Origin: a virus
IMG/VR virus record: IMGVR_UViG_3300006754_000014
Span: 4,685-68,684 of that record
Reading direction: 5' to 3' (one strand)
DNA length: 64,000 nucleotides
In this document: positions 14,884-64,000 of the stretch, piece by piece
Numbering within the stretch: position 1 is the first letter of the stretch
How the letters are laid out: each line of letters begins with the position of its first letter
Program-made: the position numbers and the translations under genes
The notes under the pieces: generated by a model
The model's database searches: none
Told to the model about the DNA's origin: nothing
Seen by the model: only the letters and a program-made list of their open reading frames with translations

Positions 14884-14917
14884 GTGCGTTTACCTAATAA
14901 GTGTTTACGTTTGAAAT

Positions 14918-22360: not shown

Positions 22361-24007
22361 CTAGTAATACTCCCACATATAAGATCTATCACCATATTCA
22401 TCTACTGTCCATCTATCTCCATCTGCATCTACAAATGATTTATCTTCATTCAACCCATCAGATACAAATCCAAATGGTGCCATATCTTGTTCTATAGCAT
22501 TTTTCTGTTCATCATATAATCTCTTTCTTACATCTTGATCTGTCAATTCCTTAAAATAGTCTTGACATACTAACCAAGCATATATGACCAGACACATTGC
22601 AAGGTCATCATTACAACCTTCTTCTGCCTCAAAAGAATTACTCTTAGATATAAAAGTAGTTAATTCTGAAATACAGTCATAATCAGTAAATAACAACTTA
22701 TCAGACTCAATCATAGTCTTGAGATTCAATGATCCAACCTTTTTAACAGTTTTGGACATCTTAACTCCTAGTTGAGTCTTCTTACCAGAAAACCCTTGTC
22801 CAATAACTTGTCCAGCACGTCCTCTCATTGAAGACATCAAAAGATTAGAATATTCGAGATCATAATTTAAAATAGACGCAACTTGATCTCCAATATCATT
22901 TACTTCACATAAAATGAATGCATTATTATATGCTTTACATGTTTCCCATATAATGTTAGGGAATAACATTGGTTTAATATCATTTTTTCTATACTTACAA
23001 ACCAGTCTATGAGGAAAAGTAGTAATATCAATAACTACAAAAGCAGAATAATCTTCTCCAACACCACGAGCAACGTCTACTGTACAAAGATAATCATGAT
23101 CAGCTTCTGGTTCAACATAAACATCTATACCATTCCCACTCTTTAGGGGAGAATCATATACTAAAGATCTTAATTTTGATGGAGATATAAGAGTATCAAC
23201 AGATCCTAAGAATTCACATTCAAACTCAACTTTAAACTGCTGTTCTGAAGTGTTTGCAATGGTTTGTCTTCTCCATTCATCATCCCTACCAGGAACTTCA
23301 GACCAATGAACTTCAGTAGTCTGATACTCATTCCTATCTTCTTCTGCATCATGCCACATGCGATAAAAATGATTCATACCCTTAGGGGTAGAAACAATTA
23401 TAATCTTGGTTGATTTACCAGATGAAATTGTAGGATAAACTGAACTGAAGAAATCCTCCGCAATATGATTAGGAACGAATGCAAATTCGTCTAAGAATAT
23501 GATGTTAAAAGTCATACCCCGAACTGCAGCAGCAGATGTAGATGCTGCCATAATCTTAGAACCGTTCTCCAGTTCTAAACTACCTTTGTTCCATACAAGA
23601 ATACCCTGTTGCATCCACTTAGGTAAATTCTCATATGCAGTCTGCAATCTTGCTAACAAGTCTCTTGCAGTTGATGCCTTGTTTGCGAGAATACCAATAT
23701 TAACATTGTCATTAAACAAAGCATAATGAAGTAGATATGATACAGACGTAGTAGACTTACCAGTCTGACGAGGCATCATGCAAATATTAAATCTATTTGC
23801 GTGAAACTTTTTAATTAACTTTTCTTGGAATGGCCACATATCAAAAGGCACAAGACCTTCATCAACGTTTACAATCTTAATAAATTTTCTAGCGAAATAT
23901 ACGGGATCATCTTTGCACTTGATGAATTCCTTAATCTGTTCTTCGTGAAATTCAATTGGCGTATTCGCTTTCTTTAAAAGCGGATTACCAAGATATACAT
24001 CAGGCAT
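22361..24007 (-). CDS. g17: Terminase large subunit (gp17)
   Basis: YLGNPLLK, PRQTGKST, FLDEFAF, VSTPKG, VDVARG, NDDLAM; uninterrupted (no intein or intron seen). Confidence 0.98.
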   Translation of the reverse strand: MPDVYLGNPLLKKANTPIEFHEEQIKEFIKCKDDPVYFARKFIKIVNVDEGLVPFDMWPFQEKLIKKFHANRFNICMMPRQTGKSTTSVSYLLHYALFNDNVNIGILANKASTARDLLARLQTAYENLPKWMQQGILVWNKGSLELENGSKIMAASTSAAAVRGMTFNIIFLDEFAFVPNHIAEDFFSSVYPTISSGKSTKIIIVSTPKGMNHFYRMWHDAEEDRNEYQTTEVHWSEVPGRDDEWRRQTIANTSEQQFKVEFECEFLGSVDTLISPSKLRSLVYDSPLKSGNGIDVYVEPEADHDYLCTVDVARGVGEDYSAFVVIDITTFPHRLVCKYRKNDIKPMLFPNIIWETCKAYNNAFILCEVNDIGDQVASILNYDLEYSNLLMSSMRGRAGQVIGQGFSGKKTQLGVKMSKTVKKVGSLNLKTMIESDKLLFTDYDCISELTTFISKSNSFEAEEGCNDDLAMCLVIYAWLVCQDYFKELTDQDVRKRLYDEQKNAIEQDMAPFGFVSDGLNEDKSFVDADGDRWTVDEYGDRSYMWEYY

Positions 24008-24017
24008 AATAAAACTC

Positions 24018-24188
24018 CTACGTCATTTCATATTTACCAAAATTTAGATGTCCCTTTGGCTCTTTTAGTAGTTTCTTATTGTGTTCTATGGTCATATCAT
24101 ATAGTTTTTTTAAATTATCTGCGGTTTCTTTTAACTTCTGAATCTCTCTATCTACCTCCCCTTTGGTATGACTGGTTGAGATGGTCAT
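24018..24188 (-). CDS. Small hypothetical protein (56 aa)
   Basis: MTISTSHTKGEVDREIQKLKETADNLKKLYDMTIEHNKK...; fills the gap before g17. Confidence 0.55.
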   Translation of the reverse strand: MTISTSHTKGEVDREIQKLKETADNLKKLYDMTIEHNKKLLKEPKGHLNFGKYEMT

Positions 24189-47100: not shown

Positions 47101-50100
47101 TCGAATTTAGGTTCTTCAAAGAAACTAAAGTCAAATGCTTGAATGGTTTGTCCAGCAGATACAATAGAAAGTGAAGGATCCGAAACATCAAACTTAACTC
47201 TACTTCCATTAACAAAAGTTAAAGGAGGATTAATTAAACTAACATGCTGATCACTAGAGGAAGTATTAGAACCAGTAGAAGTTACATCTACAATTATTGG
47301 AGGTTCCAATAAAGCATTTTTCTTACTAGATGCTAACTTAAAGTTATTAATATCAGATTTAATAACATAATAAAGAGTATTATCAACTAAACCACCTGGA
47401 ATTCCAGAAACTTTTGCAACAGAAGTAGCTGCAAACAGTACCTTATCACCAGTTATAAATCCATGACTAGGAATATTAAAGGAGTTTGTTGTTGTAGTAA
47501 CACCACTAGAAGCAATACCTTTAGGATTAATTAAAACCCTTCTATGATAATCATTATACTTAATTGTTACTGTTGTAGTAATACCAGGAGTAACATTAAG
47601 ATTTACTCTATCTCCGATTCTAAGTTGTGGATTTGTTTCTGTACTAACAACTACATCAATTTTCTTTGCGTTTCCAGTAACAACATCATATTGTGTCTTA
47701 AGACTATGTTCTATTCCAGCACCAACTGTATGGAAATATAATCTATATGCAGCAGAAGATCCAACACCAATATATCCAGTAGATCCAACACCAACCTTAG
47801 ATGTTGATAATCCTATTATGTTGTTATCATTAACAATTGCATAAACCGGAGTTGAATCAGTTAAAAGATAATTGGCTATACCATTTGTAGATACTCCTAA
47901 TGAAGTCCCTCCACCATTTGAATATATTAATTTTTGACCTGTTTTAAATCCATGACCCTTTAGATACATGGATTGGGTTGGAATAAACTTGTTTACGTTT
48001 GTTGTACCAATTCCAGCAACACTAACAGTGGATCCAATACCAACTCCCGCTGTCGTACCCAATCCTACAGTATTAAACGGGGCAAAATATAATTTTCTAT
48101 TATAAGTATATGATTTATCAGTAAAGATCCCAACAGAGAAACTGAACTTTCTAGATTTTTCAACAACCAAATCACCAGCAGTAGCAGCTATTCCTGTTGT
48201 AGAATTAAATTCCCTAAGAACCCGTACTTTCTTATTATCTTTATCTACATTTAAAACCCTAAGACACTCAAAATAATTTGCATTACTATCATGACCTATT
48301 TGCAATATATCATCTTCTCTAATAGCTTCTTTTTCTAAAGGACCATCCAAATACAAATAAGTGGATATTCCAGTAACACCAGTTGTTCCAATTCCAGCTT
48401 GAAGTTTCCATTCGTTAGTTACAACTCTAATAGGTTGTTGTCTTTCATCAACACCCCCAAAGAAATCAGTAGAAAGTCCTGATAGAGTGATGAGATCATA
48501 ATTTACATAATTATGTGGTGTTGAAGTATATACATTAACAAAACCAAACTTAGAAGAAAGTTCAATATCAACATCAGAGAAACTTCTCTCCGAAGATGAG
48601 ATGGATACTATCTTTTTACCAAGTATTTCAGAAACAACAACAGCAGCACCAGTACCGCCAGTACCTTCATTATCGAACTCTAGACTATCCCAAATTTTAT
48701 ACCCTGTACCACCAGTCAGAATACCTACAGAGTCTATAGAACCCCTGCCAGACGCCTTTAAGATACCTTTCTTCCTCTTAAGAACATCTGCAATTGGATT
48801 AATTAGTCCCTCATACAGATTTTCATCGGAATTGATCTTACTAAACTTAGTATTTCTAATTAACTTATTATCCGATACAGAGAATTTGTCTGTATTAGAA
48901 TCATTCCTAAAGTTAAAGGTTTCTGGTTTTGATCTATAAGTATCTCCAATAACATATGGGAATTGTGGTTCTCTATATCCAGCAAAAGGACCATCAGAGT
49001 TGACCTTCAAATTATTGATGGTCATAAAGTAAGCATATGTTCCATTCGGGAATTCTGGAGTTCTACAGAATCTACCATTATGTTCATCTAAATTACCATC
49101 AGCAGTGTAAGTATAATCTTCTACAAAGAATCCAGATGGCCAATCATTAACTGATGGTCTACCAGCCTTAAGATCTACACTATATCCAGACGTCATTGGA
49201 ATGATGTCGCCAGATTCCCTGTTAGTGGTGCCGTAAGGACCATATATGGGGTTTCCGTCATATGCCCACCCCAGAATTGGAGAATGGTACTGTGATAGTT
49301 GTTCCTCCCCACTGGCATAGACTAAATCAGTATTACCATAATATGGTTTCCCTTGAGGACTTAATTGATATACATTTCTTCTTAAAGATCTTGGTGCAGA
49401 GAAACAAGTGAATTGAATATGATCACCAGTAGGTATTGCAATACCATCATCATCTTTAATCGTTCCTTTGAACTTCTCAAATGAATTAACTTCCCATGTT
49501 TTAATAGAAGCTCTAAACGTAGCATTCTGTCCAGAATTAACAGCATCAATAGTTGTAGTTGCTGTTGAATATCCAACACCACCACTAATAACCGTAACAC
49601 TTGTTATTGAACCATTAGTGATAACAGGAACTAATTCTGCATAGGATCCTGTTTGCGATGATATTGATAAATCTGGAATTGAAGTATAACCAGCACCACC
49701 AAATTGAACTACAACTTCTTTTATTACTCCTTGATCAATAATTGGTTTAAACTGTGAGTTTTCTCCATTCCTAACCAATATTAACGGTTGCCTATCATAA
49801 TTAACAATAGATGATACACCATATCCAACACCACCACTAGTAACATGAACACTCTTTATAGGACCTCTTACAATAGGTTGTATTGTAGCACCAAAAATGG
49901 ATGATGCATTAGTTGTTGCAATTCCAATATTTCCTTCAACATTTACTGTAATTGGTGGATACTTAAATGTATGCGTACCTGCACCGATATCAGCAAATCT
50001 TACATAATCTTTACTGAGGTAATTAGAGTTTGATAATGTTGTTCCTATTCCTGCAGCTGCAAGTCTAAAGTCATCAACACCAGTTTTAATAACATAATAA

Positions 50101-53040: not shown

Positions 53041-54945
53041 TTACCTAGTTAACTTGCCGTTAGAGAAACTTGATGTTGTTGTATACCTTGTTCCAGAAAT
53101 ATCGGATCCAGAACTTATAAGGTCACTAACCATAGAAACAGAGCTATTACTAATATCTAATTGCAAATACAAATCTTGTTTGCCAATAACATCAAAAGAT
53201 TCTGGAACAAGTTGTATTTCAATAATAGGACTATCGCTCTTAGTTATTGCCGTATTTGAAATATTTATGGGTTTTAAAAGGATCTCTCCTTTAACATAAT
53301 CAATTGTACCTACACTACTCTTAATAATTTTCTTCTCAGTCTCAGATAATTTCTTAAAGAGGAATACTGTACCAGTTTTCATGCATGCATTTGGTTCATC
53401 ACCCAAATATACTGTTCCTGGGTAGCCAGAAATGGTAAATCCAGATGATTTGATGTTCATTTGGTCTTTATCAACATGAACTTGGTTTCCATAACAAATT
53501 TCATAGTCAGCAAACGCATTTATTGTACATCTGAGGTCTCTTCTCATCGTAATAGTTGTAATATTCGATGTAATTGACCGATCAACACCATCAATTATGG
53601 AAAGAACCTTACTGTATTTGAATCTAGACCCAAATTTATTCATTTCATTGGAATTTGCATAATTTGTAAGCGCTGAAACGATACTTGTCTTCAAATTTGT
53701 CGAAGCATTCGTTTTATTTGCATTAAAATATGCACTCGTGTTCAATTCAATATAAAGATACTTAAGATCAACCAATTCTGTTACAATTCCAGCAACAGAA
53801 TACTTTTTCAACTTATCAATAATGTTATTTTTGATTGCTCTAGAGAGAAATCGACCATTTTCAGGTTTAACACTAATATAAACACGTCCATATTGAGGTG
53901 GAGTGAGATCTTCACCACCAAATGCACTAACTGATTCAGCATTTGGATAAACAGTAGGTATCAAAGACTCAAAATCACTAGCTGTAACCGCTCTATACTG
54001 TGTAGAAAACACTTTTGGTGCATATTTCCTTACAGAAGAGACAGATTCTATTGCCTGATGTCCACTAACAGTGTCATTTACAGAAATTCCTGATATTGTA
54101 CCGTTGGTTGGACCATTAGTATCAGGATTAATCACTCTACCAGAAAAAGTAAAGTTACTAATGTTAGTAGAATCGTCGCCAGACGCTGCAAGATAGTTAA
54201 CAACGATCTGTTCACCCTCTACAACCTTCCTGCCGAAGATGCCATCACCAAAAACCAACTCATATCGTTCATCTTCTATCTCATTAACCATATAAATCTT
54301 TCGAGTGGCGTCCAAACTCAAGAGAGTCTCAACTTTCTCATACGCATCTCCTACTTGAGACTCAGAATATGGTTTAACTGTGACGCTTATTGACCTTGTA
54401 TCGATGTATGGGTTCTCAAGAATGAATCTTTGAGTCTTTTCACTCCCATAAACAGTAAAATTCTTAGTTAAAAGGTTGCCTTCATAGATTGTTACATCTT
54501 CAAATGTAGCAATTTCGTCAATTACAGAGACTGTATAGTCTTCAATCGTCGAAAAAGCGAAATTTACGTTATTAAAACTCTCAGATGTAGCAAATAATCC
54601 CTTTTTTAACGTTAAAGTTCTTGGTACACTCGATACAGACGTTAAATCTACTGTAAAATTGACTGTTGTTGACCCAGATCGATGAGATCTTGGTACATAT
54701 CCTATATTTCTTGCTAATCCAATGACATTTTCACGAAGAGTGGCGCTATCAAGGAACACTTCGTTCGCCACCATATTGGAATTATATGATGTGATGTAAC
54801 TATTGTATGCTAAAATGTCAAGTAACATTGACATGTTAGATCCTTCAAAATCAAAATCAGTAAAATTACTGTTTGATCTTACATAATCCTTAATTTCGGT
54901 CTTAATCTGGTCAAAATCCAGATTTGTAAATTTAGTTAATGCCAT
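53041..54945 (-). CDS. g6: Baseplate wedge subunit (gp6)
   Basis: LDFDQIK, FTDFDFEGS, ANEVFLDSATLRENV, RAVTA.DFE. Confidence 0.96.
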   Translation of the reverse strand: MALTKFTNLDFDQIKTEIKDYVRSNSNFTDFDFEGSNMSMLLDILAYNSYITSYNSNMVANEVFLDSATLRENVIGLARNIGYVPRSHRSGSTTVNFTVDLTSVSSVPRTLTLKKGLFATSESFNNVNFAFSTIEDYTVSVIDEIATFEDVTIYEGNLLTKNFTVYGSEKTQRFILENPYIDTRSISVTVKPYSESQVGDAYEKVETLLSLDATRKIYMVNEIEDERYELVFGDGIFGRKVVEGEQIVVNYLAASGDDSTNISNFTFSGRVINPDTNGPTNGTISGISVNDTVSGHQAIESVSSVRKYAPKVFSTQYRAVTASDFESLIPTVYPNAESVSAFGGEDLTPPQYGRVYISVKPENGRFLSRAIKNNIIDKLKKYSVAGIVTELVDLKYLYIELNTSAYFNANKTNASTNLKTSIVSALTNYANSNEMNKFGSRFKYSKVLSIIDGVDRSITSNITTITMRRDLRCTINAFADYEICYGNQVHVDKDQMNIKSSGFTISGYPGTVYLGDEPNACMKTGTVFLFKKLSETEKKIIKSSVGTIDYVKGEILLKPINISNTAITKSDSPIIEIQLVPESFDVIGKQDLYLQLDISNSSVSMVSDLISSGSDISGTRYTTTSSFSNGKLTR

Positions 54946-54947
54946 TC

Positions 54948-55346
54948 CTAGTTAGCAGATTCCAGTACGAATGTTACATGTTGTCTGCCAACAGCAAGAC
55001 CAACAATATCATAGACAATAGTTACATCAAAAGCATTACTATCTACGTTGGCAGCAACGTCAACATTGGTTACATTAACTCTAGGTTCATATTGTTCTAC
55101 TGTGTCACGAATTCTTTGTGACATCATACTTGCTGCAGCAGGACCAACGTTTTCAAAAAGCATTCCGGCAACATCTGATCCAAATGTTGGTTCAAATGGC
55201 CGTTCACCAAATTGAGTTGATACTATATTTCGTACAGATCTACTAACTGCAGTCTCATTTTTAATTACACTAAGGTCTCCTGTTATAGGATGGCGTGTAA
55301 AACTGGTAGAAATATCTTTAAAGGACCGAGAAATAGTGAGAGGCAC
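54948..55346 (-). CDS. g25: Baseplate wedge subunit (gp25)
   Basis: SF..HPITGD, VRNIV.T..GERPFEP.FG, YEPRV; TATAAATA at 55370-55377. Confidence 0.94.
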   Translation of the reverse strand: MPLTISRSFKDISTSFTRHPITGDLSVIKNETAVSRSVRNIVSTQFGERPFEPTFGSDVAGMLFENVGPAAASMMSQRIRDTVEQYEPRVNVTNVDVAANVDSNAFDVTIVYDIVGLAVGRQHVTFVLESAN

Positions 55347-55721: not shown

Positions 55722-56469
55722 GTCCTACACGTATACGAGGGTCGCACCAGATTTCAAATCCTTCCTCCTTCGCATCTAGACAGAATGAAACGTCCTCGCC
55801 ACACATGTCTTGTACTTTACCAGATTCAAAGACTTGCATCTTAGGAGCAAACCATGGATATTCAAGACTTTCGAAAACACCTTTCTTAATTAATACCCAT
55901 CCAAACCCTGTGTAATCGACAGTAAATGGTTTGCGACGTTTGTCCATTGACTCTACAGTCTCGTGATTCATTACTCCACCGTTCTTGCGGAAGTCGTCTT
56001 CCTCTAACCAGTGAGCAACTGAGGTAGTATGCCCATCTTCTGTTGCATACCATCCGGCAGTGATCTCTCTTTCCTCACCTTCTGCTGGGACAGCAAGATC
56101 GCATAATTCCCAAAACTTATTTGGATTGAAAATAATATCACTATCAATCCATAGTTGATAATCATATTCTAGTTTTCCATCCCATGGAATCTGTTTTGGC
56201 CCTCTTAGTACATTTGCACCAAGTACTTTACACCTGGCAAAGTTTACCATTGATGAATAATCTTGACTGATTTGAATACTCATTCCGTTCTGAACCATAT
56301 CAAAACAGAGTTGTACAAAATTCTTCAAGAAAATATAAGAACATCCCCTTCCTGGTAAACAGAAGATGATACTCTTACCTCTCATCCTTTCTTTAATAGC
56401 TGGGATATCCCACTGTTCTTCTTTTTTCTTAACAGGAGATTTCGCTTTAACTGTAAATCCTTTAGCCAT
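55699..56469 (-). CDS. GT-A fold glycosyltransferase-like protein
   Basis: WIDSD (DxD), YTGFG.VLIKKGVFE, GEDV.FC, GHEK motifs. Confidence 0.8.
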   Translation of the reverse strand: MAKGFTVKAKSPVKKKEEQWDIPAIKERMRGKSIIFCLPGRGCSYIFLKNFVQLCFDMVQNGMSIQISQDYSSMVNFARCKVLGANVLRGPKQIPWDGKLEYDYQLWIDSDIIFNPNKFWELCDLAVPAEGEEREITAGWYATEDGHTTSVAHWLEEDDFRKNGGVMNHETVESMDKRRKPFTVDYTGFGWVLIKKGVFESLEYPWFAPKMQVFESGKVQDMCGEDVSFCLDAKEEGFEIWCDPRIRVGHEKTRII

Positions 56470-56492
56470 AAAATAAATGCTCTAATCAATAC

Positions 56493-56521
56493 ATTTTAAC
56501 CCATTATATATTAACCGTCAA
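56493..56521 (-). promoter_or_regulatory. Sigma70-type promoter for the glycosyltransferase
   Basis: TTGACG-17nt-TAAAAT. Confidence 0.65.
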
Positions 56522-56691
56522 CAACTATGATCTTCATCTGTTGGTAGGGATGTTACTACTAATATTTCATGGAGGTCTGGGCGTATTTTTTTCTTCGCGA
56601 TTTTTTTCTCTAGTTCTTCGTAATTAAGATTACAATATAATACATTATTGTTATGATATACATGGAAGTTTATTTCAGGACTCTTAATCAT
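56518..56691 (-). CDS. Small hypothetical protein (57 aa)
   Basis: MIKSPEINFHVYHNNNVLYCNLNYEELEKKIAKKK...; fills the gap between ORFs. Confidence 0.55.
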   Translation of the reverse strand: MIKSPEINFHVYHNNNVLYCNLNYEELEKKIAKKKIRPDLHEILVVTSLPTDEDHSC

Positions 56692-56711
56692 TTTTTCCTA
56701 CGAAAATTTTT

Positions 56712-56864
56712 TTACAGTTTATGAATAACTAATCCATCATTCTTTATCTGCCATTCTAACATATCTCCTTCTTCCCAAAAAAGATCTTCCAACATTTCTT
56801 CGCTTAATCTTATATAATACTCGTCGGTCTTTTCATTATATTCAATCTCCAACTCATCAAACAT
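56712..56864 (-). CDS. AbrB/MazE/SpoVT-like small DNA-binding protein
   Basis: YYIRLSEEMLEDLFWEEGDMLEWQI matches the swapped-hairpin I.LP...L..LG...GD.LE pattern. Start placed at MFDELE. Confidence 0.55.
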   Translation of the reverse strand: MFDELEIEYNEKTDEYYIRLSEEMLEDLFWEEGDMLEWQIKNDGLVIHKL

Positions 56865-57065
56865 AGTAAGATTCCAACTGATCTTATATATGATTCTCGG
56901 CCCTGGCAATTTTTTTTATTTCAATATATTTCTCTCGCGCTTTTGGTTCGTTGTAGGTTAGGGTAGTGAGCGGTTTTACTTATCGTATCGCGAATCGTCA
57001 TATACCGTAACACCCCCGGCGCACTGCTCATATGTTATAACTCTTAATAATTAATACAAAATACA

Positions 57066-57092
57066 TAAAAACCCTCTACCATGGAGGGGCAG
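57066..57092 (-). terminator. Probable terminator after the 61-aa ORF
   Basis: Minus strand CCCTC-CATGGTA-GAGGG followed by TTTTT. Confidence 0.55.
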
Positions 57093-57106
57093 AGGGAGAG
57101 GGGTGC

Positions 57107-57292
57107 TCAGGTCAGGCGGGTCGCATGGGGATGCTCTCTGCCTTGTCTGTTCGTGTTGGTCCTGAGTCCTTTGGTCATGCTCATAATGAGGTCTGACCGG
57201 CGGGGTTTCGAGGCGGGAAGCACGGTGTACTTGATCTCGCCACGTGCGTCTGCTCGCTGGAGGTCGGAGCGGGAGACGTTTGAAAAATCCAT
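57107..57292 (-). CDS. Small basic early protein
   Basis: 61-aa ORF directly downstream of the leftward TATAAT of the divergent promoter and followed by a terminator. Confidence 0.65.
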   Translation of the reverse strand: MDFSNVSRSDLQRADARGEIKYTVLPASKPRRSDLIMSMTKGLRTNTNRQGREHPHATRLT

Positions 57293-57318
57293 GAGGAATT
57301 TCTCTTGACTACCCTCCT

Positions 57319-57412
57319 ATTATACCCCCCGGGCAGACCCATGGCATGAAAGAGTGTGCACTTTGCGAACTGTCCCCTAGCACCCCACAAGGGGGTTTTT
57401 TGCGTGTATAAT
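57319..57412. promoter_or_regulatory. Symmetric bidirectional early promoter around one palindromic element
   Basis: Core CACTT-TGCG-AACTG (57359-57372), with TATAAT exactly 34 nt away on each side (57319-57324 minus, 57407-57412 plus). Confidence 0.8.
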
Positions 57413-57437
57413 ACAGGGGTACACACGACAAGACTCC

Positions 57438-57674
57438 ATGAACGGTTGGGAAAACTACGAAACTTGGAACGCTTCTCTTTGGATTGGCAACGACGAGTTT
57501 TTGTACAACACCGCTAAGGCATGCGTCAAGTTTTGTCCCGAAGACGAGACCCCATACGTCAAGTTCATCAGATGCATGACGAACGGTGGAATGCCCATCA
57601 CTGGCGACGGGGTTAAGTGGGATGATCCTACTATCAACCATGATGAAATGGTTGAGATGATGGTTGAGTTATGA
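57438..57674 (+). CDS. Hypothetical acidic protein, first gene of the plus-strand operon
   Basis: MNGWENYETWNASLWIGNDEFLY; follows TATAAT; its stop overlaps the next start (ATGA). Confidence 0.8.
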   Translation: MNGWENYETWNASLWIGNDEFLYNTAKACVKFCPEDETPYVKFIRCMTNGGMPITGDGVKWDDPTINHDEMVEMMVEL

Positions 57675-57844
57675 CCAGTAAGCAACTTACCAAATTTGCT
57701 AGGTCGTTGGGTTGGGTGCTTGCCCGTCATGGTAGCAAGCACCACATTTTCAAACATGAAAATGCCATCAAACTGGTCACCATACCATATCACACCCGCG
57801 ATCGCGTAGGCAAGCAAATCAAGAGACAGTTACAGAGCGTCTAG
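57671..57844 (+). CDS. hicA: HicA/YcfA-family RNase toxin-like protein (57 aa)
   Basis: Manual translation MTSKQLTKFARSLGWVLARHGSKHHIFKHENAIKLVTIPYHTRDRVGKQIKRQLQSV shows G-W...GSxH, VTIPxH and K.I.RQL, with HicA size and basic charge. Translationally coupled to the upstream gene and followed by a terminator. Confidence 0.75.
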   Translation: MTSKQLTKFARSLGWVLARHGSKHHIFKHENAIKLVTIPYHTRDRVGKQIKRQLQSV

Positions 57845-57863
57845 ACGATCTTCGAACTGTCAC

Positions 57864-57888
57864 AAGCACCCTCGAGGGTGCTTTTTTT
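57864..57888 (+). terminator. Rho-independent terminator after the hicA-like gene
   Basis: AAGCACCC-TCGA-GGGTGCTT followed by a T run. Confidence 0.88.
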
Positions 57889-58096
57889 ATGTGAGGGTGT
57901 ATTTGTTGGTTGCAATTCTTTACACCCTCTAGGAGCATAATTTTTATGCCACAGTTCTCACCATAAGAGAAGTGCTGCAAGTTTTCCACAGCACTGCCCT
58001 ATAGCGTATATACTGATACCCTGTGGAAAACTTTTTTTCCACAGCATGGACTGCGCTAGTACATAAAAACTCTTCTCTTACCCCTCGCAATCTTAT
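57864..58096 (-). ncRNA. Candidate structured non-coding RNA (~230 nt)
   Basis: Downstream of a perfect TTGACA-17-TATAAT promoter; no credible ORF; at least five adjacent hairpins. Confidence 0.45.
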
Positions 58097-58102
58097 GAGT
58101 TA

Positions 58103-58131
58103 ATTATATACTTTTTCCACAGGATTGTCAA
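58103..58131 (-). promoter_or_regulatory. Perfect sigma70 promoter with a DnaA box in its spacer
   Basis: TTGACA-atccTGTGGAAAAagta-TATAAT (17-nt spacer). Confidence 0.8.
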
Positions 58132-58134
58132 GCG

Positions 58135-58299
58135 TTAAATGTAATAAATCTCATCAGTATTAAAGTCTTCTACTGCTACATTTACCTTGTCAAATTCTTC
58201 TAGAGATAATACTTTGTACCAGTCAATTTCTCGTGGGTTTATATCACCAATTACATCAAGATCTAGCGTAATTCTATACTTTTGTTGTGTGACGTACAT
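58135..58299 (-). CDS. Small acidic hypothetical protein (54 aa)
   Basis: MYVTQQKYRITLDLDVIGDINPREIDWYKVLSLEEFDKVNVAVEDF...; GGAGG ribosome binding site and promoter upstream. Confidence 0.7.
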   Translation of the reverse strand: MYVTQQKYRITLDLDVIGDINPREIDWYKVLSLEEFDKVNVAVEDFNTDEIYYI

Positions 58300-58325
58300 G
58301 AAAAGAACCTCCAGAAGACTTTTGT

Positions 58326-58354
58326 ATCATAGTTGTTAACAACTGTTTTGTCAA
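58326..58354 (-). promoter_or_regulatory. Sigma70 promoter for the 54-aa ORF
   Basis: TTGACA-17nt-TATGAT; the spacer overlaps the palindrome AGTTGTTAACAACT. Confidence 0.75.
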
Positions 58355-58386
58355 GTACTTATATGTTACAAAATATAATCGCGGAT

Positions 58387-58415
58387 TTGACTTATAAGGA
58401 AAGTCATGATAGAAT
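58387..58415 (+). promoter_or_regulatory. Sigma70 promoter reading into a non-coding repeat segment
   Basis: TTGACT-17nt-TAGAAT with an extended -10 TG. Confidence 0.6.
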
Positions 58416-58622
58416 GCGCGCCAAGATCACAACAACTCCAAGGATTAACACCCTATTTGAGCACTTTATCTCTGGAGGATTAACAGATCTTTTTAGTACA
58501 TTTGTTTGCCATATATTTATGCTCAAATTCCACATAATTACCCCACTTATTAACACCCCTGTGGAAAACTATACAACACGCTGTTATATTAATTAAAGCA
58601 TTAATAAATGATTTAGGTATAA

Positions 58623-58844
58623 CTACGTTTCTTTAATTTTCTTGTAAATATGTTCTACTTTGGGGCATTTTGTCTCAGCGAGTATATCTAAATTATCCAT
58701 AAATTCAAGCAATTCAGTATATAATTTGAACCCTACTTCTTGTTCATTACATTCTCTATCAGAGAGGAAATTCTTATTTCTACCGAGCGAACAATAGTAA
58801 TCATATTTCGTATGTACGTATTCACGTAGTCTCTTATCTTTCAT
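58623..58844 (-). CDS. Hypothetical protein
   Basis: 73-aa ORF ending a tightly packed operon. Confidence 0.65.
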   Translation of the reverse strand: MKDKRLREYVHTKYDYYCSLGRNKNFLSDRECNEQEVGFKLYTELLEFMDNLDILAETKCPKVEHIYKKIKET

Positions 58845-58846
58845 GA

Positions 58847-59134
58847 CTAATGTCCTCCGTAGGGGTCGTTCATTTCATCGAATGTTGAATTATCGTAAGA
58901 TTCCTGTTCAATTGGTTTATGATCTGCCATGCCTCCATGATTACCATCTTGAGGCATTTTTCCATAACAGAGATATTCTACTGTTTGAATTGATCCTTTT
59001 AACCTATCAAGATCTCTATCCAATTTCATATACTCTTGATAATCATCTTCTAATTCTTCTAGTCTATCTTCTAATTGAGTTGTTCTTTTATAAAATCTTT
59101 CAAGAAGTTGTTCATATGATTCAGTTTGTTTCAT
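58847..59134 (-). CDS. Hypothetical coiled-coil protein
   Basis: 95-aa ORF with heptad pattern; overlaps the upstream gene. Confidence 0.7.
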   Translation of the reverse strand: MKQTESYEQLLERFYKRTTQLEDRLEELEDDYQEYMKLDRDLDRLKGSIQTVEYLCYGKMPQDGNHGGMADHKPIEQESYDNSTFDEMNDPYGGH

Positions 59135-59502: not shown

Positions 59503-59629
59503 GTTCGTGTTTTTCTTTCTTAATACGTTTCTTGACCATCTTTGCATACTTGATATCACTCTCTGTATACCAATTTGGATGTTTCTTCGCTCGTTTGATG
59601 ATCTTTTTTGCTGCTTTAATGTCCTTCAA
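59477..59629 (-). CDS. Small Lys-rich hypothetical protein (50 aa)
   Basis: TTG start; MKDIKAAKKIIKRAKKHPNWYTESDIKYAKMVKKRIKKEK... Confidence 0.6.
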   Translation of the reverse strand: MKDIKAAKKIIKRAKKHPNWYTESDIKYAKMVKKRIKKEKHELDNNPSTD

Positions 59630-60236
59630 TGTGTTCTTTTTGTTCCTTAGGCGTGTAACTGACTTTACGATTACCTGTTAGTTCTACATTAAAACTTATA
59701 CATATTCTTCTCTCATTTGAGCGATTTGGTGTTGTCGCATGTATGAGCAATGCTGGGAAAAATATTAACATCCCTTCTTCTAAGTTTGGCGTATAACTTA
59801 ATTGTCCGCCTGATACTGGATCGTGAAAGGGTGCTATAAAATTAATAGGGTCGTGTTCATATTTATCATAATTTACATAACATACTGCCACAAATCCTGT
59901 TGTGCCATGTGTATGCATTCCATGATATTGACCCTTATCCGCTATCTCATACCATGGCAATCCTTGTGTATACCATCCTTCACAACATTCACGTTTCATT
60001 AATTCATCTAATTCTGGGCGAAATAACTCAGGCAAACTTTCGTATTTGGGTGCATATGCATCCTTACTCCAGTAATTAGTGTTTATTGTCTCTGTTGTTA
60101 AATCAAATTCTACTGGTTTACATTCTTTATCACTAGGAAGTAATTCCATAATATATTTCTTTTTCTCTTCCCAATCATCTAACCTAAATTCATGAATGGG
60201 TAAAGTAAAATCAAATACTGAATAACATTTACTCAT
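59616..60236 (-). CDS. 2OG-Fe(II) oxygenase family protein (TIGR02466-like)
   Basis: HxH (HTH), ...CYV..., EEGMLIFFPALLIH...PN.S..RRICISFN. Confidence 0.8.
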   Translation of the reverse strand: MSKCYSVFDFTLPIHEFRLDDWEEKKKYIMELLPSDKECKPVEFDLTTETINTNYWSKDAYAPKYESLPELFRPELDELMKRECCEGWYTQGLPWYEIADKGQYHGMHTHGTTGFVAVCYVNYDKYEHDPINFIAPFHDPVSGGQLSYTPNLEEGMLIFFPALLIHATTPNRSNERRICISFNVELTGNRKVSYTPKEQKEHIEGH

Positions 60237-60969: not shown

Positions 60970-61130
60970 TACTGTTGATAAACACCTTGCAAGAAAATGC
61001 GTTCAGCAGGGTAACGTTCCTCTATGAGGTCTTCTATGTAGTTACGGTCATTGGTGTCTGATTCGACTTCAAACCTGTGTGACCGTCCCTTATAGTCCTC
61101 ATAGCGTCCCCTGACAACATAATAGGTCAT
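60969..61130 (-). CDS. Small hypothetical protein (53 aa)
   Basis: MTYYVVRGRYEDYKGRSHRFEVESDTNDRNYIEDLIEERYPAERIFLQGVYQQ; TAATG and ATGA overlaps on either side. Confidence 0.7.
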   Translation of the reverse strand: MTYYVVRGRYEDYKGRSHRFEVESDTNDRNYIEDLIEERYPAERIFLQGVYQQ

Positions 61131-61300
61131 AATGCCTCAGAAATCAAGTCTCTGATGCTTTCGTCATCGAGGCAGAATTCTTCCAATAGGTAATCTACAG
61201 TGACTTCATACTTTGAGGCAACTTCCTCTAGCACACGGTCACCCAAATCCTTTTTGGACATCTCATGCTCAATGAATAGGTCTAGTGTTGAATCATGCAT
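61127..61300 (-). CDS. Small acidic hypothetical protein (57 aa)
   Basis: MHDSTLDLFIEHEMSKKDLGDRVLEEVASKYEVTVDYLLEEFCLDDESIRDLISEAL. Confidence 0.7.
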   Translation of the reverse strand: MHDSTLDLFIEHEMSKKDLGDRVLEEVASKYEVTVDYLLEEFCLDDESIRDLISEAL

Positions 61301-61316
61301 AGGGGCAAAAAGAGAG

Positions 61317-61350
61317 AAAAAAAAGGGAAGGACTATGAACCCCTTCCCTT
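61317..61350 (-). terminator. Rho-independent terminator/attenuator
   Basis: Minus strand AAGGGAAGG-loop-CCTTCCCTT followed by a T run. Confidence 0.75.
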
Positions 61351-61376
61351 GAGAATAAACAAAGTAAAGAGTATGG

Positions 61377-61700
61377 TCAACTTAGAACCATACCGGACTC
61401 AAATGGAATGATGTCTGAGAAGTCAAGACTTCTCTTATAGAACCAATTCCAGTTTTTTTGAAATACGCCTGCAGCAGGCATAATGAATTCGGCGATGATG
61501 GCATTCAAACGTGATTTGGTTGTGTTTGTTTGCCAACCACCGTCGAAAATTTGAACCTGATCGTCAATAACGGCAATCAGGTGGTTGTGAAGATAAACAA
61601 ATGCTTTGTTGTCTTCACTGATCTCAACCCTTGTGTTGTCCTTCCTCCAGTCCTGACGGGATCTGATGGCGCGGTTCATTTGGGTTTCAATCTTGCGCAT
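61377..61700 (-). CDS. Hypothetical early protein
   Basis: Start placed at MRKIETQMN (61700), just after a TATAAT; VYLH...IA, DGGWQT.TTKSRLNA motif. Confidence 0.8.
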   Translation of the reverse strand: MRKIETQMNRAIRSRQDWRKDNTRVEISEDNKAFVYLHNHLIAVIDDQVQIFDGGWQTNTTKSRLNAIIAEFIMPAAGVFQKNWNWFYKRSLDFSDIIPFESGMVLS

Positions 61701-61727
61701 GTAGGTAAAATGCGTTTGTACTCTCTT

Positions 61728-61789
61728 ATTATACTGTCTTATGACCTGCTTCGGACCGTTTGACCTCCGATCTGTAACAATACGTAACA
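61728..61789 (-). promoter_or_regulatory. Early promoter, class B (HLR1-like direct repeat upstream)
   Basis: GTTACGTA-TT-GTTACAGA; TATAAT lies 39 nt after the second GTTACA. Confidence 0.7.
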
Positions 61790-61790
61790 C

Positions 61791-61868
61791 TCATCCTAGG
61801 TGAGGAAACGCGAGCGTAAACATCAAACCTAGGAAAGTGCAACAAATTATGAAGAATATCCAACCCAT
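61791..61868 (-). CDS. 25-aa hydrophobic peptide (single transmembrane helix)
   Basis: MGWIFFIICCTFLGLMFTLAFPHLG with purine-rich AGAAGG upstream. Confidence 0.45.
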   Translation of the reverse strand: MGWIFFIICCTFLGLMFTLAFPHLG

Positions 61869-61892
61869 CTACCTTCTACCCTATATCGTGTA

Positions 61893-62027
61893 TTATTCTA
61901 CTTCGTTAACTGATCCTTCTACATATGCGTCAATGAACTCTAGGAGTTCGGCACCTGTTGTTGACTCTTCAAGGGAAACAAGAAGATCATTTAATGCAGT
62001 GGTCATGGTGAATCGGTTTAGTAACAT
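61893..62027 (-). CDS. Small acidic hypothetical protein
   Basis: MLLNRFTMTTALNDLLVSLEESTTGAELLEFIDAYVEGSVNEVE; follows the promoter at 62068-62118. Alternative start at 62006. Confidence 0.55.
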   Translation of the reverse strand: MLLNRFTMTTALNDLLVSLEESTTGAELLEFIDAYVEGSVNEVE

Positions 62028-62067
62028 GGAAAATAGAGTAGTTTAGAGTCGTGCTCAGGACTTATCT

Positions 62068-62985: not shown

Positions 62986-63014
62986 AAAAAAAGAAGGGGG
63001 GGTTAATCCCCTTC
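62986..63014 (-). terminator. Rho-independent terminator/attenuator
   Basis: Minus strand GAAGGGG-ATTAACCC-CCCCTTC followed by TTTTTTT. Confidence 0.7.
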
Positions 63015-63170
63015 GAAAAGTCTTGAGATCTTACGTAGAACTGAATTGGTGTCTTCGGTAACCTCATCAGTGTCAGCGCAATAACCTTCTTGTGTTACAG
63101 CATCATAAATGGTGTCCCACTCCTTTTCAGTGAAAAACTCTTTAATCGCTGTTAGGTCCTGAACTGTCAT
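63003..63170 (-). CDS. Small acidic early protein (55 aa)
   Basis: Start placed at MTVQDLTAIKEFF; the longer ORF-track start overlaps the -10 box. Confidence 0.7.
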   Translation of the reverse strand: MTVQDLTAIKEFFTEKEWDTIYDAVTQEGYCADTDEVTEDTNSVLRKISRLFEGD

Positions 63171-63269
63171 AAAACGAAAAGTGAATTGAAAATTGGATGG
63201 GAGCGACGTGTTACCACGAAAGCGACTTGCTGGGACAACCCCTTTTGGGGACTTTCCCTCCCATGACCT

Positions 63270-63330
63270 AATATACACGGTTTTGACCCGTTTAGGTCGG
63301 TTGACCCCAGATCTGTAACAATACGTTACA
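63270..63330 (-). promoter_or_regulatory. Early promoter, class B
   Basis: GTAACGTA-TT-GTTACAGA; TATATT lies 38 nt after GTTACA. Confidence 0.7.
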
Positions 63331-63463
63331 TGGGGTCAGGTTTGAATGCTGTTGCTGGTGGTCCAGTCAGAACGGTTTCAAGGCGTGAGAGGTCGAAACG
63401 ACCCGTCTTGAATTGTCTGTAGCAGATGGACCAGTGACCTTTAAACTTGCGAATGTGGCGCAT
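63326..63463 (-). CDS. Small basic early protein (45 aa)
   Basis: MRHIRKFKGHWSICYRQFKTGRFDLSRLETVLTGPPATAFKPDPM; directly follows a promoter and leader hairpin. Confidence 0.55.
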   Translation of the reverse strand: MRHIRKFKGHWSICYRQFKTGRFDLSRLETVLTGPPATAFKPDPM

Positions 63464-63516
63464 AGTAGTGAAGGGGGTCGGAGGTGTCGGAGGGTCCGTG
63501 ACCCCCTCATGTCCTT

Positions 63517-63574
63517 AATATACATGGTTATGCCCCCTTCTGGGCAAATGTGTACCAGTTTAAGAACTGTCTAC
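63517..63574 (-). promoter_or_regulatory. Early promoter, class A (palindrome, hairpin and TATATT)
   Basis: Perfect CAGTT-TAAG-AACTG core (63556-63569), 33 nt from TATATT (63517-63522). Confidence 0.75.
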
Positions 63575-63774
63575 TATTTGACGATTTCCCAGTTCGGATC
63601 GTCTAGTTTTTTCATCTGGAAATTGTACCGACCGCTGATCGATGATAGGTAGAAATGAACAGAGTCTTCGCTGTCAACCCGGCAAGAGTGCAGGTTATGC
63701 ATGACACTATTGAATCTGTCCTTAGCATCATCGGTCTTAGGTTCAACGCAAATCAGTTTGCTTTTAGTCTTCAT
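63574..63774 (-). CDS. Hypothetical phage protein
   Basis: MKTKSKLICVEPKTDDAKDRF...LHSC.V...L.SI...Y.F...DPNW. Confidence 0.7.
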   Translation of the reverse strand: MKTKSKLICVEPKTDDAKDRFNSVMHNLHSCRVDSEDSVHFYLSSISGRYNFQMKKLDDPNWEIVK

Positions 63775-63816
63775 GGTGTGGAGTGAGTACAGAAAAAAGG
63801 AGGTCCTAGTCAACCG

Positions 63817-63990
63817 TCATGATGTAGCATAGGTTTGTTTGATTGCATCGGACTTGAATCGTCTGCATAACTTAAACAAGAGTTTTAAGTCATCATCAAT
63901 CACATATCTGAATGAAGGTGATTCAATAACAAACTTGTCATCTTCAATCCAGATTTGTGGTAGTTTCTTCTTGTAGATAATGTCGATCAT
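63817..63990 (-). CDS. Small hypothetical protein (57 aa or longer)
   Basis: MIDIIYKKKLPQIWIEDDKFVIESPSFRYVIDDDLKLLFKLCRRFKS...; the true start may lie beyond the window edge. Confidence 0.55.
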   Translation of the reverse strand: MIDIIYKKKLPQIWIEDDKFVIESPSFRYVIDDDLKLLFKLCRRFKSDAIKQTYATS

Positions 63991-64000
63991 GATGGTGAAA

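What the first reader, a model, noticed from the sequence alone, without database searches (positions are those of the whole stretch)
57438..57888. Unannotated orphan HicA-like RNase in the only plus-strand operon of a lytic-type phage, coupled to a non-HicB partner
Seen: a 57-aa ORF (57671-57844) missed by the ORF track is translationally coupled (ATGA) to a 78-aa acidic ORF. The pair has its own early promoter and terminator and looks more GC-rich than the structural genes. Known: HicA toxins are ~60-aa basic dsRBD-fold RNases with a catalytic His in a G-S-x-H/G-S-H motif and a later PxH; here GSKH (His24) and VTIPYH match. HicA is normally paired with HicB, and no HicB-like ORF is visible. 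Inference: it could be an early host-mRNA shutoff nuclease, a new toxin-antitoxin pair with the acidic protein as antitoxin, or a decoy that binds host HicB.
Basis: partly seen in the sequence, partly recalled or inferred. Interest (0 to 1): 0.8.

Follow-up and report, generated by a model that had tools for sequence, protein, structure and literature searches.

The report
Orphan HicA RNase gene in cyanophage
A marine T4-like cyanophage carries a small mobile gene cassette holding a genuine HicA-type RNA-cutting toxin gene with no HicB antidote, joined to a widespread phage gene of unknown function that is probably a neighbour, not its antidote.

Summary
ORFs 57438-57674 (78 aa) and 57671-57844 (57 aa) overlap by ATGA on the plus strand of an almost wholly minus-strand T4-like cyanomyovirus fragment. 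They sit in a GC-richer island and end at a clear terminator.

The 57-aa protein is a true HicA:
- Pfam PF07927 scores 41 bits (cut-off 27).
- The AlphaFold model (pLDDT 90.5) is alpha-beta-beta-beta-alpha, and its six best PDB matches are all HicA.
- His24 is invariant and aligns with the catalytic His.
- dN/dS is 0.08-0.21.

The upstream protein is DUF7249 (PF23907). It is an acidic four-helix phage family of 678 clusters, has no PDB match, and usually occurs without HicA.

No HicB gene was found in this fragment or in three complete cyanophage genomes that carry the same pair.

HicA lies near DUF7249 in 47 of 65 metagenomic loci. But each gene's nearest relatives occur without the other, and the gene just upstream of HicA varies: ORFx 21, DUF7249 16, other 12, a 42-aa ORF 7.

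The pair is bounded by repeated GAACTGTC-hairpin-T-run elements, the upstream one followed by TATAAT. These resemble PeSL terminator/promoter motifs.

Best reading: a mobile early-gene cassette carrying an orphan phage RNase. An antitoxin role for DUF7249 is unproven and unlikely.

The parts
57367..57412 (+). Upstream boundary element. It consists of the GAACTGTC motif, a G+C hairpin (57382-57396), a T-run and a perfect -10 box TATAAT (57407-57412). It is a composite terminator/promoter of PeSL type.
   Evidence: Sequence. The hairpin plus T-run is called by the scan. The GAACTGTC-plus-hairpin form is found on the plus strand only here and at 57854 (which also listed one-mismatch or hairpin-less motif hits at 48144 and 63564). 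The same element precedes or follows DUF7249 or HicA in L005/L085, L006 and L087.
57438..57674 (+). DUF7249 gene (78 aa, acidic, four helices). It is a widespread phage protein of unknown function and the first gene of the cassette.
   Evidence: Pfam PF23907, E 2.6e-29. phrog_871. 678 clusters. AF2 pLDDT 97.1 with four helices. No PDB match.
57671..57844 (+). HicA-family gene (57 aa, basic, catalytic His24). Its start overlaps the DUF7249 stop in ATGA.
   Evidence: Pfam PF07927 41 bits against a cut-off of 27. phrog_353 'toxin'. Profile hits to HicA chains 5yrz_B, 4c26_A and 6g26_E. AF2 pLDDT 90.5, alpha-beta-beta-beta-alpha. The six best Foldseek matches are all HicA; 6g26_E has TM 0.84 and rmsd 1.5. 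dN/dS 0.08-0.21.
57854..57888 (+). Downstream boundary element. It consists of the GAACTGTC motif, an 8-bp hairpin (57864-57883) and a T-run, and serves as an intrinsic terminator. It is the second copy of the boundary motif.
   Evidence: Terminator scan. Motif search. In the 98.6%-identical contig L005/L085 this element also carries a TATAAT box.

Best explanation
The locus is a roughly 520-bp laterally mobile early-gene cassette in the hyperplastic region next to the baseplate genes of a marine T4-like cyanomyovirus. It is inserted against the direction of all neighbouring genes.

The cassette is bounded by two copies of a GAACTGTC-hairpin-T-run element. The upstream copy is followed by a TATAAT box. 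This is the composite terminator/promoter (PeSL-type) architecture known to shuffle small genes among T4-like phages.

It carries two genes:
- DUF7249, a widespread acidic four-helix phage protein with a function of its own.
- A genuine HicA-family endoribonuclease with its catalytic histidine intact and under purifying selection.

The HicA is an orphan, with no HicB anywhere in view. Its link to DUF7249 is best explained as co-transcription and translational coupling in a shared early operon, at a preferred landing site for small accessory genes. It is not best explained as a dedicated toxin-antitoxin pair.

The most likely role of HicA (inferred, not shown) is as a phage-made mRNA interferase. 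It would be expressed early from a host-type promoter and would cut host, and perhaps early phage, transcripts during lytic infection, as RegB does in T4. A lytic phage does not need to neutralise such an enzyme.

Shown: gene identity, fold, conserved His, selection, absence of HicB, cassette structure, variable neighbours. Inferred: RNase activity, early timing, target RNAs.
For: HicA identity:
- PF07927 scores 41 bits against a cut-off of 27.
- A profile of 32 homologues hits three solved HicA chains. His24 is aligned to the His of the GSH motif of 5yrz_B, and to the Ala in 4c26_A. I recall that 4c26_A is the H24A mutant.
- The AF2 model has pLDDT 90.5 and is alpha-beta-beta-beta-alpha.
- Foldseek ranks 1-6 are all HicA, with TM up to 0.84.
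- His24 and Arg19 are invariant.
- dN/dS is 0.08-0.21 against 9 of 9 relatives compared.

Orphan status:
- HicB models PF15919 and PF05534 give no hit in 3 of 3 complete cyanophage genomes that carry the pair.
- PF15919 gives no hit in the window's own record.

DUF7249 is independent of HicA:
- 252 phage records hold DUF7249, against 5 cyanophage records (3 phages) with a detectable HicA.
- Only 15 of 80 metagenomic DUF7249 loci have a HicA within 1.5 kb.
- 3 of 3 complete DUF7249-bearing genomes tested (S-PM2, PBECO4, phiITL-1) have no HicA. The two positive controls rang.
- A 95%-identical DUF7249 stands alone between two boundary elements in L006.

Variable neighbours of HicA: of 56 loci with 250 nt or more upstream, the gene just upstream is ORFx in 21, DUF7249 in 16, other in 12 and a 42-52-aa ORF in 7. 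The nearest HicA relatives (L086, L088-L094) follow that 42-52-aa ORF.

Cassette structure:
- The boundary elements lie only at 57367 and 57854 and recur in related loci.
- GC is 0.47, against 0.36 for the window and a median of 0.47 for DUF7249 loci elsewhere.
- The closest relative by the flanking gene (L151) has neither gene.
- PeSL precedent: Comeau et al. 2014, PMC4122927 (passages read).

RNA libraries: contigs from RNA-library runs of two studies bridge the DUF7249/HicA junction. These are X16 record 8, X17 records 14-15 and X18 record 17. This is only weak support for transcription.
Against: - No assay shows RNase activity or toxicity.
- An orphan HicA-like gene of mycobacteriophage LeBron (gp82) was not toxic on overexpression (PMC13148394, passage read), so orphan HicAs can be inactive.
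- HicA lies within 2.5 kb of DUF7249 on the same strand in 47 of 65 loci. It directly follows DUF7249, often with overlapping stop and start, in 16 of 56 loci. The two proteins also have opposite charges. All of this would equally fit a neutralising partner.
- Only about 35% of the genome is in view, so a trans-encoded antitoxin cannot be excluded.
- The -35 region of the presumed promoter is poor, and the scan did not call it.
- Presence in RNA libraries does not prove transcription, as the tool itself warns.
- PeSLs have not been documented in cyanophages in the passages I read. Puxty et al. 2015 found few candidates in S-PM2.
Confidence: 0.5

Rival explanations
1. DUF7249 and HicA form a new two-gene toxin-antitoxin (or toxin-inhibitor) pair. 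The acidic four-helix DUF7249 binds and masks the basic HicA until it is needed or degraded. Solitary DUF7249 genes would then be orphan antitoxins or anti-toxin counter-defence genes.
For: - The stop and start overlap in ATGA.
- The same direct adjacency is seen in S-B43 (gap -1), S-RSM4 (gap 21) and S-H9-1 (gap 31), and in 16 of 56 metagenomic HicA loci.
- DUF7249 lies within 2.5 kb on the same strand in 47 of 65 HicA loci.
- The two proteins have complementary charges, -9.4 and +9.9.
- The asymmetry, with the antitoxin often alone and the toxin seldom far from it, is what TA logic predicts.
Against: - A 95%-identical DUF7249 occurs alone.
- The closest HicA relatives sit after a different ORF, and no DUF7249 is present on 5 of 5 of those fragments, which are only 4-13% complete.
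- DUF7249 is in complete genomes without any HicA, 3 of 3.
- Acidity is a trait of the whole family, 68 of 74.
- The fold is all-helical, unlike the beta-beta-beta-alpha-beta HicB fold described by Gerdes.
- In 21 of 56 loci another small ORF (ORFx) sits between the two genes.
Confidence: 0.12
2. HicA is neutralised or controlled by a partner that is not in view. Candidates are a small DBD-less HicB-like protein (ORFx or the 42-52-aa ORF are candidates in other phages) that this phage encodes elsewhere or has lost, or the host's own HicB.
For: - In 28 of 56 loci HicA is directly preceded by ORFx or by the 42-52-aa ORF, often with overlapping stop and start.
- Gerdes' survey describes compact hicBA modules whose 57-94-aa HicB lacks a DNA-binding domain and lies upstream of hicA (bioRxiv 10.1101/2023.12.08.570793, section 6 read).
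- Only 35% of the genome is seen.
Against: - ORFx and the small ORF have no Pfam or PHROG match.
- Neither has a PDB sequence match at E up to 10 other than chance-level rows.
- The window's cassette has no room for such an ORF.
- Three complete genomes with the direct DUF7249-HicA arrangement have no HicB model hit.
Confidence: 0.15
3. The HicA homologue is not a working toxin. It would be an RNA-binding dsRBD-like protein, a weak RNase with a regulatory role, or a passenger gene.
For: - The orphan HicA-like gp82 of mycobacteriophage LeBron was non-toxic.
Against: - His24 and Arg19 are invariant across homologues down to 27% identity.
- dN/dS is 0.08-0.21.
- The model superposes on active HicA toxins at rmsd 1.5 A.
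Confidence: 0.13
4. The phage HicA acts as a decoy that titrates host HicB, or otherwise interferes with a host HicAB defence system.
For: None beyond family membership. HicA rings in the Synechococcus elongatus control genome, so cyanobacteria can carry the system.
Against: - Titrating HicB would free the host toxin and harm the infection.
- No close cellular relative was found: 0 and 1 distant hit in two scans of 185,579 species genomes, by a pattern-limited method.
Confidence: 0.04

Closest known systems
HicA toxins of type II HicAB systems (Pfam PF07927; solved examples 6g26, 4c26, 5yrz, 4p78, 6hpb, 1whz)
   Same: Size (57 aa), basic charge, the alpha-beta-beta-beta-alpha dsRBD-like fold, and the catalytic His at the start of strand 2, aligned with the known catalytic position.
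   Different: - No HicB gene of either Pfam model beside it or in related complete genomes.
- Encoded by a lytic T4-like cyanophage.
- The motif reads G-S-K-H, with a Lys inserted relative to the usual G-S-H.
Phage-borne HicA genes already on record: phrog_353 'toxin', the RefSeq 'toxin' annotation in Synechococcus phage S-H9-1, the class 1 hicAB of Planktothrix phage PaV-LD (Gerdes preprint), and HicA-like genes of mycobacteriophages
   Same: A HicA-family gene in a phage genome. The S-H9-1 gene is a homologue in the same DUF7249-HicA arrangement.
   Different: PaV-LD and most mycobacteriophage examples have a cognate HicB. This one, like LeBron gp82, is an orphan. The recurrent placement beside DUF7249 in marine cyanomyoviruses was not found in print: 0 papers hold 'DUF7249', and none of the 12 listed titles and abstracts holding 'HicA' and 'cyanophage' concerns it.
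PeSL composite terminator/promoter motifs of T4-like phages (Arbiol et al. 2010; Comeau et al. 2014)
   Same: A short conserved hairpin plus a host-type promoter box flanking small accessory ORFs in hyperplastic regions, with related phages differing by whole cassettes.
   Different: - The sequence is different (GAACTGTC plus a C/G-rich hairpin).
- Only two copies occur in 64 kb, not a dense array.
- No good -35 hexamer.
- Recombination at these elements is inferred, not shown.
- In the PeSL paper, searches for 'cyanophage' and 'S-PM2' found no occurrence.
T4 RegB (recalled, not tested here): an early phage endoribonuclease with a toxin-like fold that inactivates early mRNAs
   Same: The concept only: a small toxin-fold RNase made early by a T4-type phage with no antitoxin.
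   Different: A different fold family (RelE/YoeB-like, not HicA). No homology was tested. The analogy is from memory.

Membership tests
HicA toxin family (PF07927) | Sequence match to the family model above the curated cut-off | tested here: met
   41 bits against a cut-off of 27, E 2.1e-10. 40.4 bits in the genome scan.
HicA toxin family (PF07927) | [quoted passage not shown] | tested here: met
   The AF2 model (pLDDT 90.5) has H3-12, E16-20, E24-28, E36-39 and H44-55. Foldseek ranks 1-6 are HicA chains, TM 0.64-0.84.
HicA toxin family (PF07927) | Catalytic histidine at the start of strand 2 (G-S-H motif) | tested here: met
   His24 is invariant in 14 of 14 and 32 of 32 homologues. It is aligned with the His of the GSH motif in 5yrz_B and with the mutated position in 4c26_A (the mutant's identity is recalled).
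HicA toxin family (PF07927) | Endoribonuclease activity and toxicity | not testable with these tools
   Needs expression and cleavage assays.
HicAB type II toxin-antitoxin system | An adjacent HicB antitoxin (partial RNase H fold, with or without a DNA-binding domain) | tested here: not met
   PF15919 gives no hit in the window's own record. PF15919 and PF05534 give no hit in 3 of 3 complete genomes with the pair. The neighbour DUF7249 is modelled as four helices and no strands of 3 or more residues.
HicAB type II toxin-antitoxin system | Physical neutralisation of HicA by the neighbouring gene product | not testable with these tools
   Needs co-expression rescue and binding assays.
DUF7249 (PF23907) | Sequence match above the curated cut-off | tested here: met
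   102.5 bits against a cut-off of 27, E 2.6e-29. The conserved N-terminal Trp/Asn-rich block is shared with 73 representatives.
PeSL-type mobile regulatory cassette | A conserved stem-loop plus promoter motif repeated at both ends of small accessory ORFs | tested here: met
   Two copies at 57367 and 57854, and nowhere else on that strand. The same element is at cassette ends in L005/L085, L006 and L087.
PeSL-type mobile regulatory cassette | A near-consensus sigma-70 promoter (-35 and -10) within the motif | tested here: inconclusive
   A perfect -10 lies at 57407-57412, but the -35 is 3 of 6 and is not called by the scan. The downstream copy in the window lacks TATAAT, whereas the copy in L085 has it.
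PeSL-type mobile regulatory cassette | Indels between close relatives that begin and end at the motifs | tested here: inconclusive
   L006 shares only 57383-57663 with the window (93%), from the upstream element to just before the end of DUF7249. The nearest relative by flanking gene, L151, lacks the cassette but is too divergent (about 80% nt) to map exact breakpoints.

The most novel reading that the evidence does not exclude
DUF7249 is a new, non-HicB class of inhibitor of HicA-type RNases, perhaps together with the other small ORFs found just upstream of cyanophage HicA genes. Phages would carry it widely, on its own, to disarm host HicA-like defence toxins. Some cyanophages would then have captured a HicA beside it to make a self-contained, mobile toxin-inhibitor cassette. 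This would explain three things: why DUF7249 is so common alone, why phage HicA genes keep settling next to it, and why the two proteins have opposite charges.
Probability: 0.1. Interest if true: 0.75.

Novelty: new member of a known kind. Interest (0 to 1): 0.42.

Why it matters
HicA toxins are usually studied as bacterial defence or persistence modules held in check by HicB. Here a strictly lytic marine cyanophage lineage keeps an intact HicA under purifying selection with no HicB. This suggests that phages can use a toxin-antitoxin nuclease as an offensive tool for host take-over.

Three cultured phages carry the same pair (S-RSM4, S-B43, S-H9-1), so the idea can be tested directly.

The work also gives a first context for DUF7249, a large phage family with a confidently modelled fold that matches no solved structure.

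Finally, it points to PeSL-like terminator/promoter elements as cassette boundaries in cyanomyoviruses, where I found no such elements described in the passages I read.

Tried and rejected
- Complex prediction of DUF7249 with HicA, both given as alignments: no answer (score 0.00, mark 0.32).
- Foldseek of the DUF7249 model against the PDB: best E 2.6. VIA-align against 48,161 chains: best Z 4.0, no Z of 5 or more. BFVD returned only uncharacterised phage proteins. ESM Atlas features gave hits at 0.80 only, in the chance range. No functional lead came from any of these.
- ORFx: no Pfam or PHROG hit for 2 members scanned. A profile search against PDB sequences gave only chance-level rows. ESM Atlas gave no usable hit and holds no model.
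- Rfam scan of 56000-59000 at E up to 1: 0 matches.
- megablast of 57000-58100 against 50,697 phage records: no match.
- Cellular origin of the HicA: a scan of species genomes with the alignment found 0 relatives. With the single protein it found 1, a Parcubacteria MAG at 43% over 44 residues. The method depends on exact peptide patterns, so it says little.
- The first alignment for the search for related loci was too diverse and was replaced by a narrower one.
- The 81-nt upstream element does not fold better than shuffles (z -0.55).
- RNA-library contigs gave no cover over 57060-57374.
- I first took the whole GC-rich kilobase (57070-58070) as one island flanked by a 14-nt repeat (family D4). 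I rejected this because the 61-aa minus-strand gene inside it has a protein-level homologue in L151, which lacks the cassette.
Full report
**What is there.** The two plus-strand ORFs are real. ORF 57438-57674 encodes 78 aa and ORF 57671-57844 encodes 57 aa, and the stop of the first overlaps the start of the second in ATGA. The window is part of a 68.7-kb IMG/VR virus record judged 35% complete. It is a T4-like cyanomyovirus. Its only megablast relatives are Synechococcus myoviruses such as S-SM2 and Bellamy. Genes next to the locus include baseplate wedge subunits at 53041-55346 and a 2OG-Fe(II) oxygenase at 59616-60236. Coding is almost entirely on the minus strand: 40 ORFs of 100 aa or more (18,733 aa) against 7 on the plus strand (915 aa). 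The pair therefore does run against the grain.

**The 57-aa protein is a HicA.**
- It matches Pfam HicA_toxin at 41 bits (cut-off 27) and phrog_353 'toxin'.
- A profile of 32 homologues finds three solved HicA chains. His24 falls on the His of the GSH motif of the S. pneumoniae toxin, and on the Ala of entry 4c26. I recall, but did not verify, that 4c26 is the H24A mutant of the B. pseudomallei toxin.
- The AlphaFold model (pLDDT 90.5) is alpha-beta-beta-beta-alpha.
- Its six best Foldseek matches in the PDB are all HicA, the best with TM 0.84 and rmsd 1.5 A over 57 columns.
- His24 and Arg19 are invariant in alignments of 14 and 32 homologues that go down to 27% identity.
- Against 9 of 9 relatives compared, dN/dS is 0.08-0.21.

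It is a functional protein-coding gene.

**The 78-aa protein is DUF7249.**
- It matches PF23907 at E 2.6e-29 and phrog_871.
- An exhaustive search finds 678 clusters at 50% identity with E up to 0.001. Most are stand-alone proteins of 70-120 aa. Ten longer forms were scanned and carry no second informative domain.
- With 74 sequences the model is very confident (pLDDT 97.1) and consists of four helices.
- It matches nothing solved: Foldseek best E 2.6, VIA-align best Z 4.0 over 48,161 chains.
- Among viral models it matches only uncharacterised phage proteins.
- No paper in the library holds the word DUF7249.
- It is acidic (pI 4.17), but so is the family: 68 of 74 representatives are negatively charged.

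**Is there a HicB?** The HicB model PF15919 gives no hit in the window's own record. Neither PF15919 nor PF05534 hits in the complete genomes of S-RSM4, S-B43 and S-H9-1, which carry the same DUF7249-HicA arrangement. In these phages HicA is an orphan with respect to canonical HicB.

**How tightly are the two genes linked?**

*From the DUF7249 side.*
- tblastn finds DUF7249 in 252 phage records. These are mostly cyanophages, but also Ralstonia, Escherichia, Salmonella, Klebsiella and Campylobacter phages.
- The window's HicA is detectable in only 18 records, 5 of them cyanophage records representing 3 phages.
- Among the best 80 of 216 IMG/VR DUF7249 loci, my iterated HicA profile finds a HicA within 1.5 kb, always on the same strand, in 15 (14 downstream, 1 upstream). 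The gaps range from -4 to 512 nt. Three of the 65 negative loci have less than 300 nt downstream.
- Complete genomes of S-PM2, PBECO4 and phiITL-1 hold DUF7249 but no HicA, while S-RSM4 and S-B43 rang as positive controls.

*From the HicA side.*
- 47 of 65 IMG/VR HicA loci have DUF7249 within 2.5 kb on the same strand. Ten of the 18 negative loci have less than 300 nt upstream.
- That is far more than chance. But the gene immediately upstream of HicA varies. Of 56 loci with 250 nt or more upstream, it is a 55-75-aa family I call ORFx in 21, DUF7249 in 16, other ORFs in 12, and a 42-52-aa ORF in 7.
- Most telling, each gene's closest relatives occur without the other. A DUF7249 that is 95% identical at the protein level (93% in DNA over 57383-57663 only) stands alone in L006.
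- The closest HicA relatives other than the near-identical contig L005/L085 and L087 (namely L086 and L088-L094, 60-86% identity) follow the 42-52-aa ORF. That ORF is itself preceded by a DUF3574 protein, with no DUF7249 on those short fragments.

Partner type therefore switches within a single HicA clade. This argues against a co-evolving toxin-antitoxin pair and for a shared landing zone and shared transcription unit.

**The cassette.**
- Upstream of DUF7249 lies GAACTGTC, a hairpin (57382-57396), a T-run and a perfect TATAAT (57407-57412).
- Downstream of HicA lies GAACTGTC again, an 8-bp hairpin (57864-57883) and a T-run.
- On the plus strand of the 64-kb window this motif-plus-hairpin form occurs only at these two places.
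- The same element, with TATAAT, follows HicA in L085 and L087, and brackets the DUF7249-only unit of L006 on both sides.
- The cassette has GC 0.47 in a 0.36 genome. DUF7249 loci elsewhere have a median GC of 0.47, so it probably came from a GC-richer cyanophage.
- In 24 of 80 relatives recovered through the flanking phrog_1574 gene, a more distant DUF7249 lies at the same place but co-directionally. None of the 80 has a HicA.
- The closest of them, L151, has neither gene.
- The architecture is that of PeSL composite terminator/promoter motifs, which mediate cassette shuffling in T4-like phages (Comeau et al. 2014, PMC4122927, passages read; Arbiol et al. 2010, search listing only). Puxty et al. 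2015 saw few such motifs in cyanophage S-PM2 (PMC4503421, passages read).
- The promoter is only half convincing. The -35 region overlaps the hairpin and matches 3 of 6, and the scan did not call it.

**Expression.** Contigs assembled from RNA libraries of two studies lie on the cassette at 90% likeness or more. Several bridge the DUF7249/HicA junction: X16 record 8 (57625-57861), X17 records 14-15, and X18 record 17 (57573-57796). One X17 contig shows the DUF7249-only variant continuing into a GAACTGTC hairpin. The tool warns that this does not prove transcription, so I treat it as a weak hint.

**Mechanism.** I think the most likely reading (about 0.5) is an orphan phage endoribonuclease. 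It would be delivered on a mobile early cassette and used during lytic infection to cut host, and perhaps early phage, mRNA. T4 RegB is a conceptual precedent, recalled and not tested. A lytic phage need not neutralise such an enzyme.

Evidence against this, told fully:
- The strong neighbourhood link to DUF7249, the overlapping stop and start, and the opposite charges would also fit an inhibitor.
- An orphan HicA-like gene of mycobacteriophage LeBron was non-toxic (PMC13148394, passage read).
- Gerdes' survey describes compact hicBA modules with small DBD-less HicB proteins upstream of hicA (bioRxiv 10.1101/2023.12.08.570793, section 6 read). ORFx or the 42-52-aa ORF could be such proteins in other phages.
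- The supplementary tables of that survey were not available to me and may list cyanophage cases.

**Novelty.** HicA genes in phages are on record: phrog_353, the RefSeq 'toxin' label in S-H9-1, and PaV-LD in the Gerdes preprint. This is therefore a new member of a known kind. Three points I did not find in print (by titles, abstracts and the passages read):
- the orphan state of HicA in a marine cyanomyovirus lineage;
- its recurrent seat beside DUF7249;
- the PeSL-like boundaries.

The finding is solid but moderate in interest. It would rise sharply only if DUF7249, or the other small upstream ORFs, proved to be new HicA inhibitors.

Noticed in passing
window 57960-58131 (minus strand): A perfect sigma-70-type promoter (TTGACA-17-TATAAT, 58131-58103) lies upstream. 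The 137-nt stretch 58096-57960 folds into three hairpins (MFE -46.7, z -4.55) and contains a terminator-like hairpin at 57995-57971. It carries three direct copies and inverted copies of TTTTCCACAG. RNA-library contigs lie on 57923-58072. No Rfam match. This is a candidate small RNA next to the cassette.
   Followed up: partly
window 57107-57292 (minus strand): A 61-aa, very GC-rich (0.58), basic ORF with its own promoter-like site (57347-57319) and terminator (57096-57072). A 67-aa protein-level homologue exists in L151 (1750-1953), which lacks the cassette. It is therefore a native gene and accounts for part of the GC island. No Pfam or PHROG match.
   Followed up: partly
loci L032, L047-L049, L065, L078, L080, L082, L083, L095-L149 (various): A small ORF family (ORFx, 55-90 aa, ending in a conserved ...LPTF motif) sits between DUF7249 and HicA in many cyanophage fragments. 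In L049 all three genes overlap by ATGA. Longer relatives of about 100 aa follow DUF7249 in 14 loci without HicA. Its function is unknown, and it is possibly a compact antitoxin.
   Followed up: partly
loci L086, L088-L094: The closest HicA relatives form a different three-gene unit: a DUF3574 protein (about 120 aa), a 42-52-aa ORF and HicA. The last two overlap by ATGA in 6 of the 7 loci classed.
   Followed up: partly
loci L084, L107-L111: Here HicA lies roughly 650-800 nt upstream of DUF7249. In L084 it is followed, with overlapping stop and start, by a 76-aa phrog_6036 protein. This is the canonical toxin-first gene order.
   Followed up: no
window 38199-53039 (minus strand): A single open reading frame of 4,946 aa directly downstream of the baseplate wedge genes. 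I did not scan it.
   Followed up: no
L233 (S-PM2 record 23768-24102) and L001 (S-RSM4 record 136802-136969): In the S-PM2 record the DUF7249 gene is not annotated, while an ORF on the opposite strand (S-PM2p070) is. In the S-RSM4 record the HicA homologue is not annotated at all.
   Followed up: no
L231 (Ralstonia phage phiITL-1): In this T7-like podovirus the DUF7249 gene is a lone gene on the strand opposite to all its neighbours, like the inverted cassette in the window.
   Followed up: no
window 14001-15000, 61001-62000, 63001-64000: Further stretches with raised GC (0.42-0.48) in the 0.36 background. Small plus-strand ORFs at 61837-62046 and 63413-63652 survive a non-overlap filter but have no Pfam or PHROG match.
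   Followed up: partly
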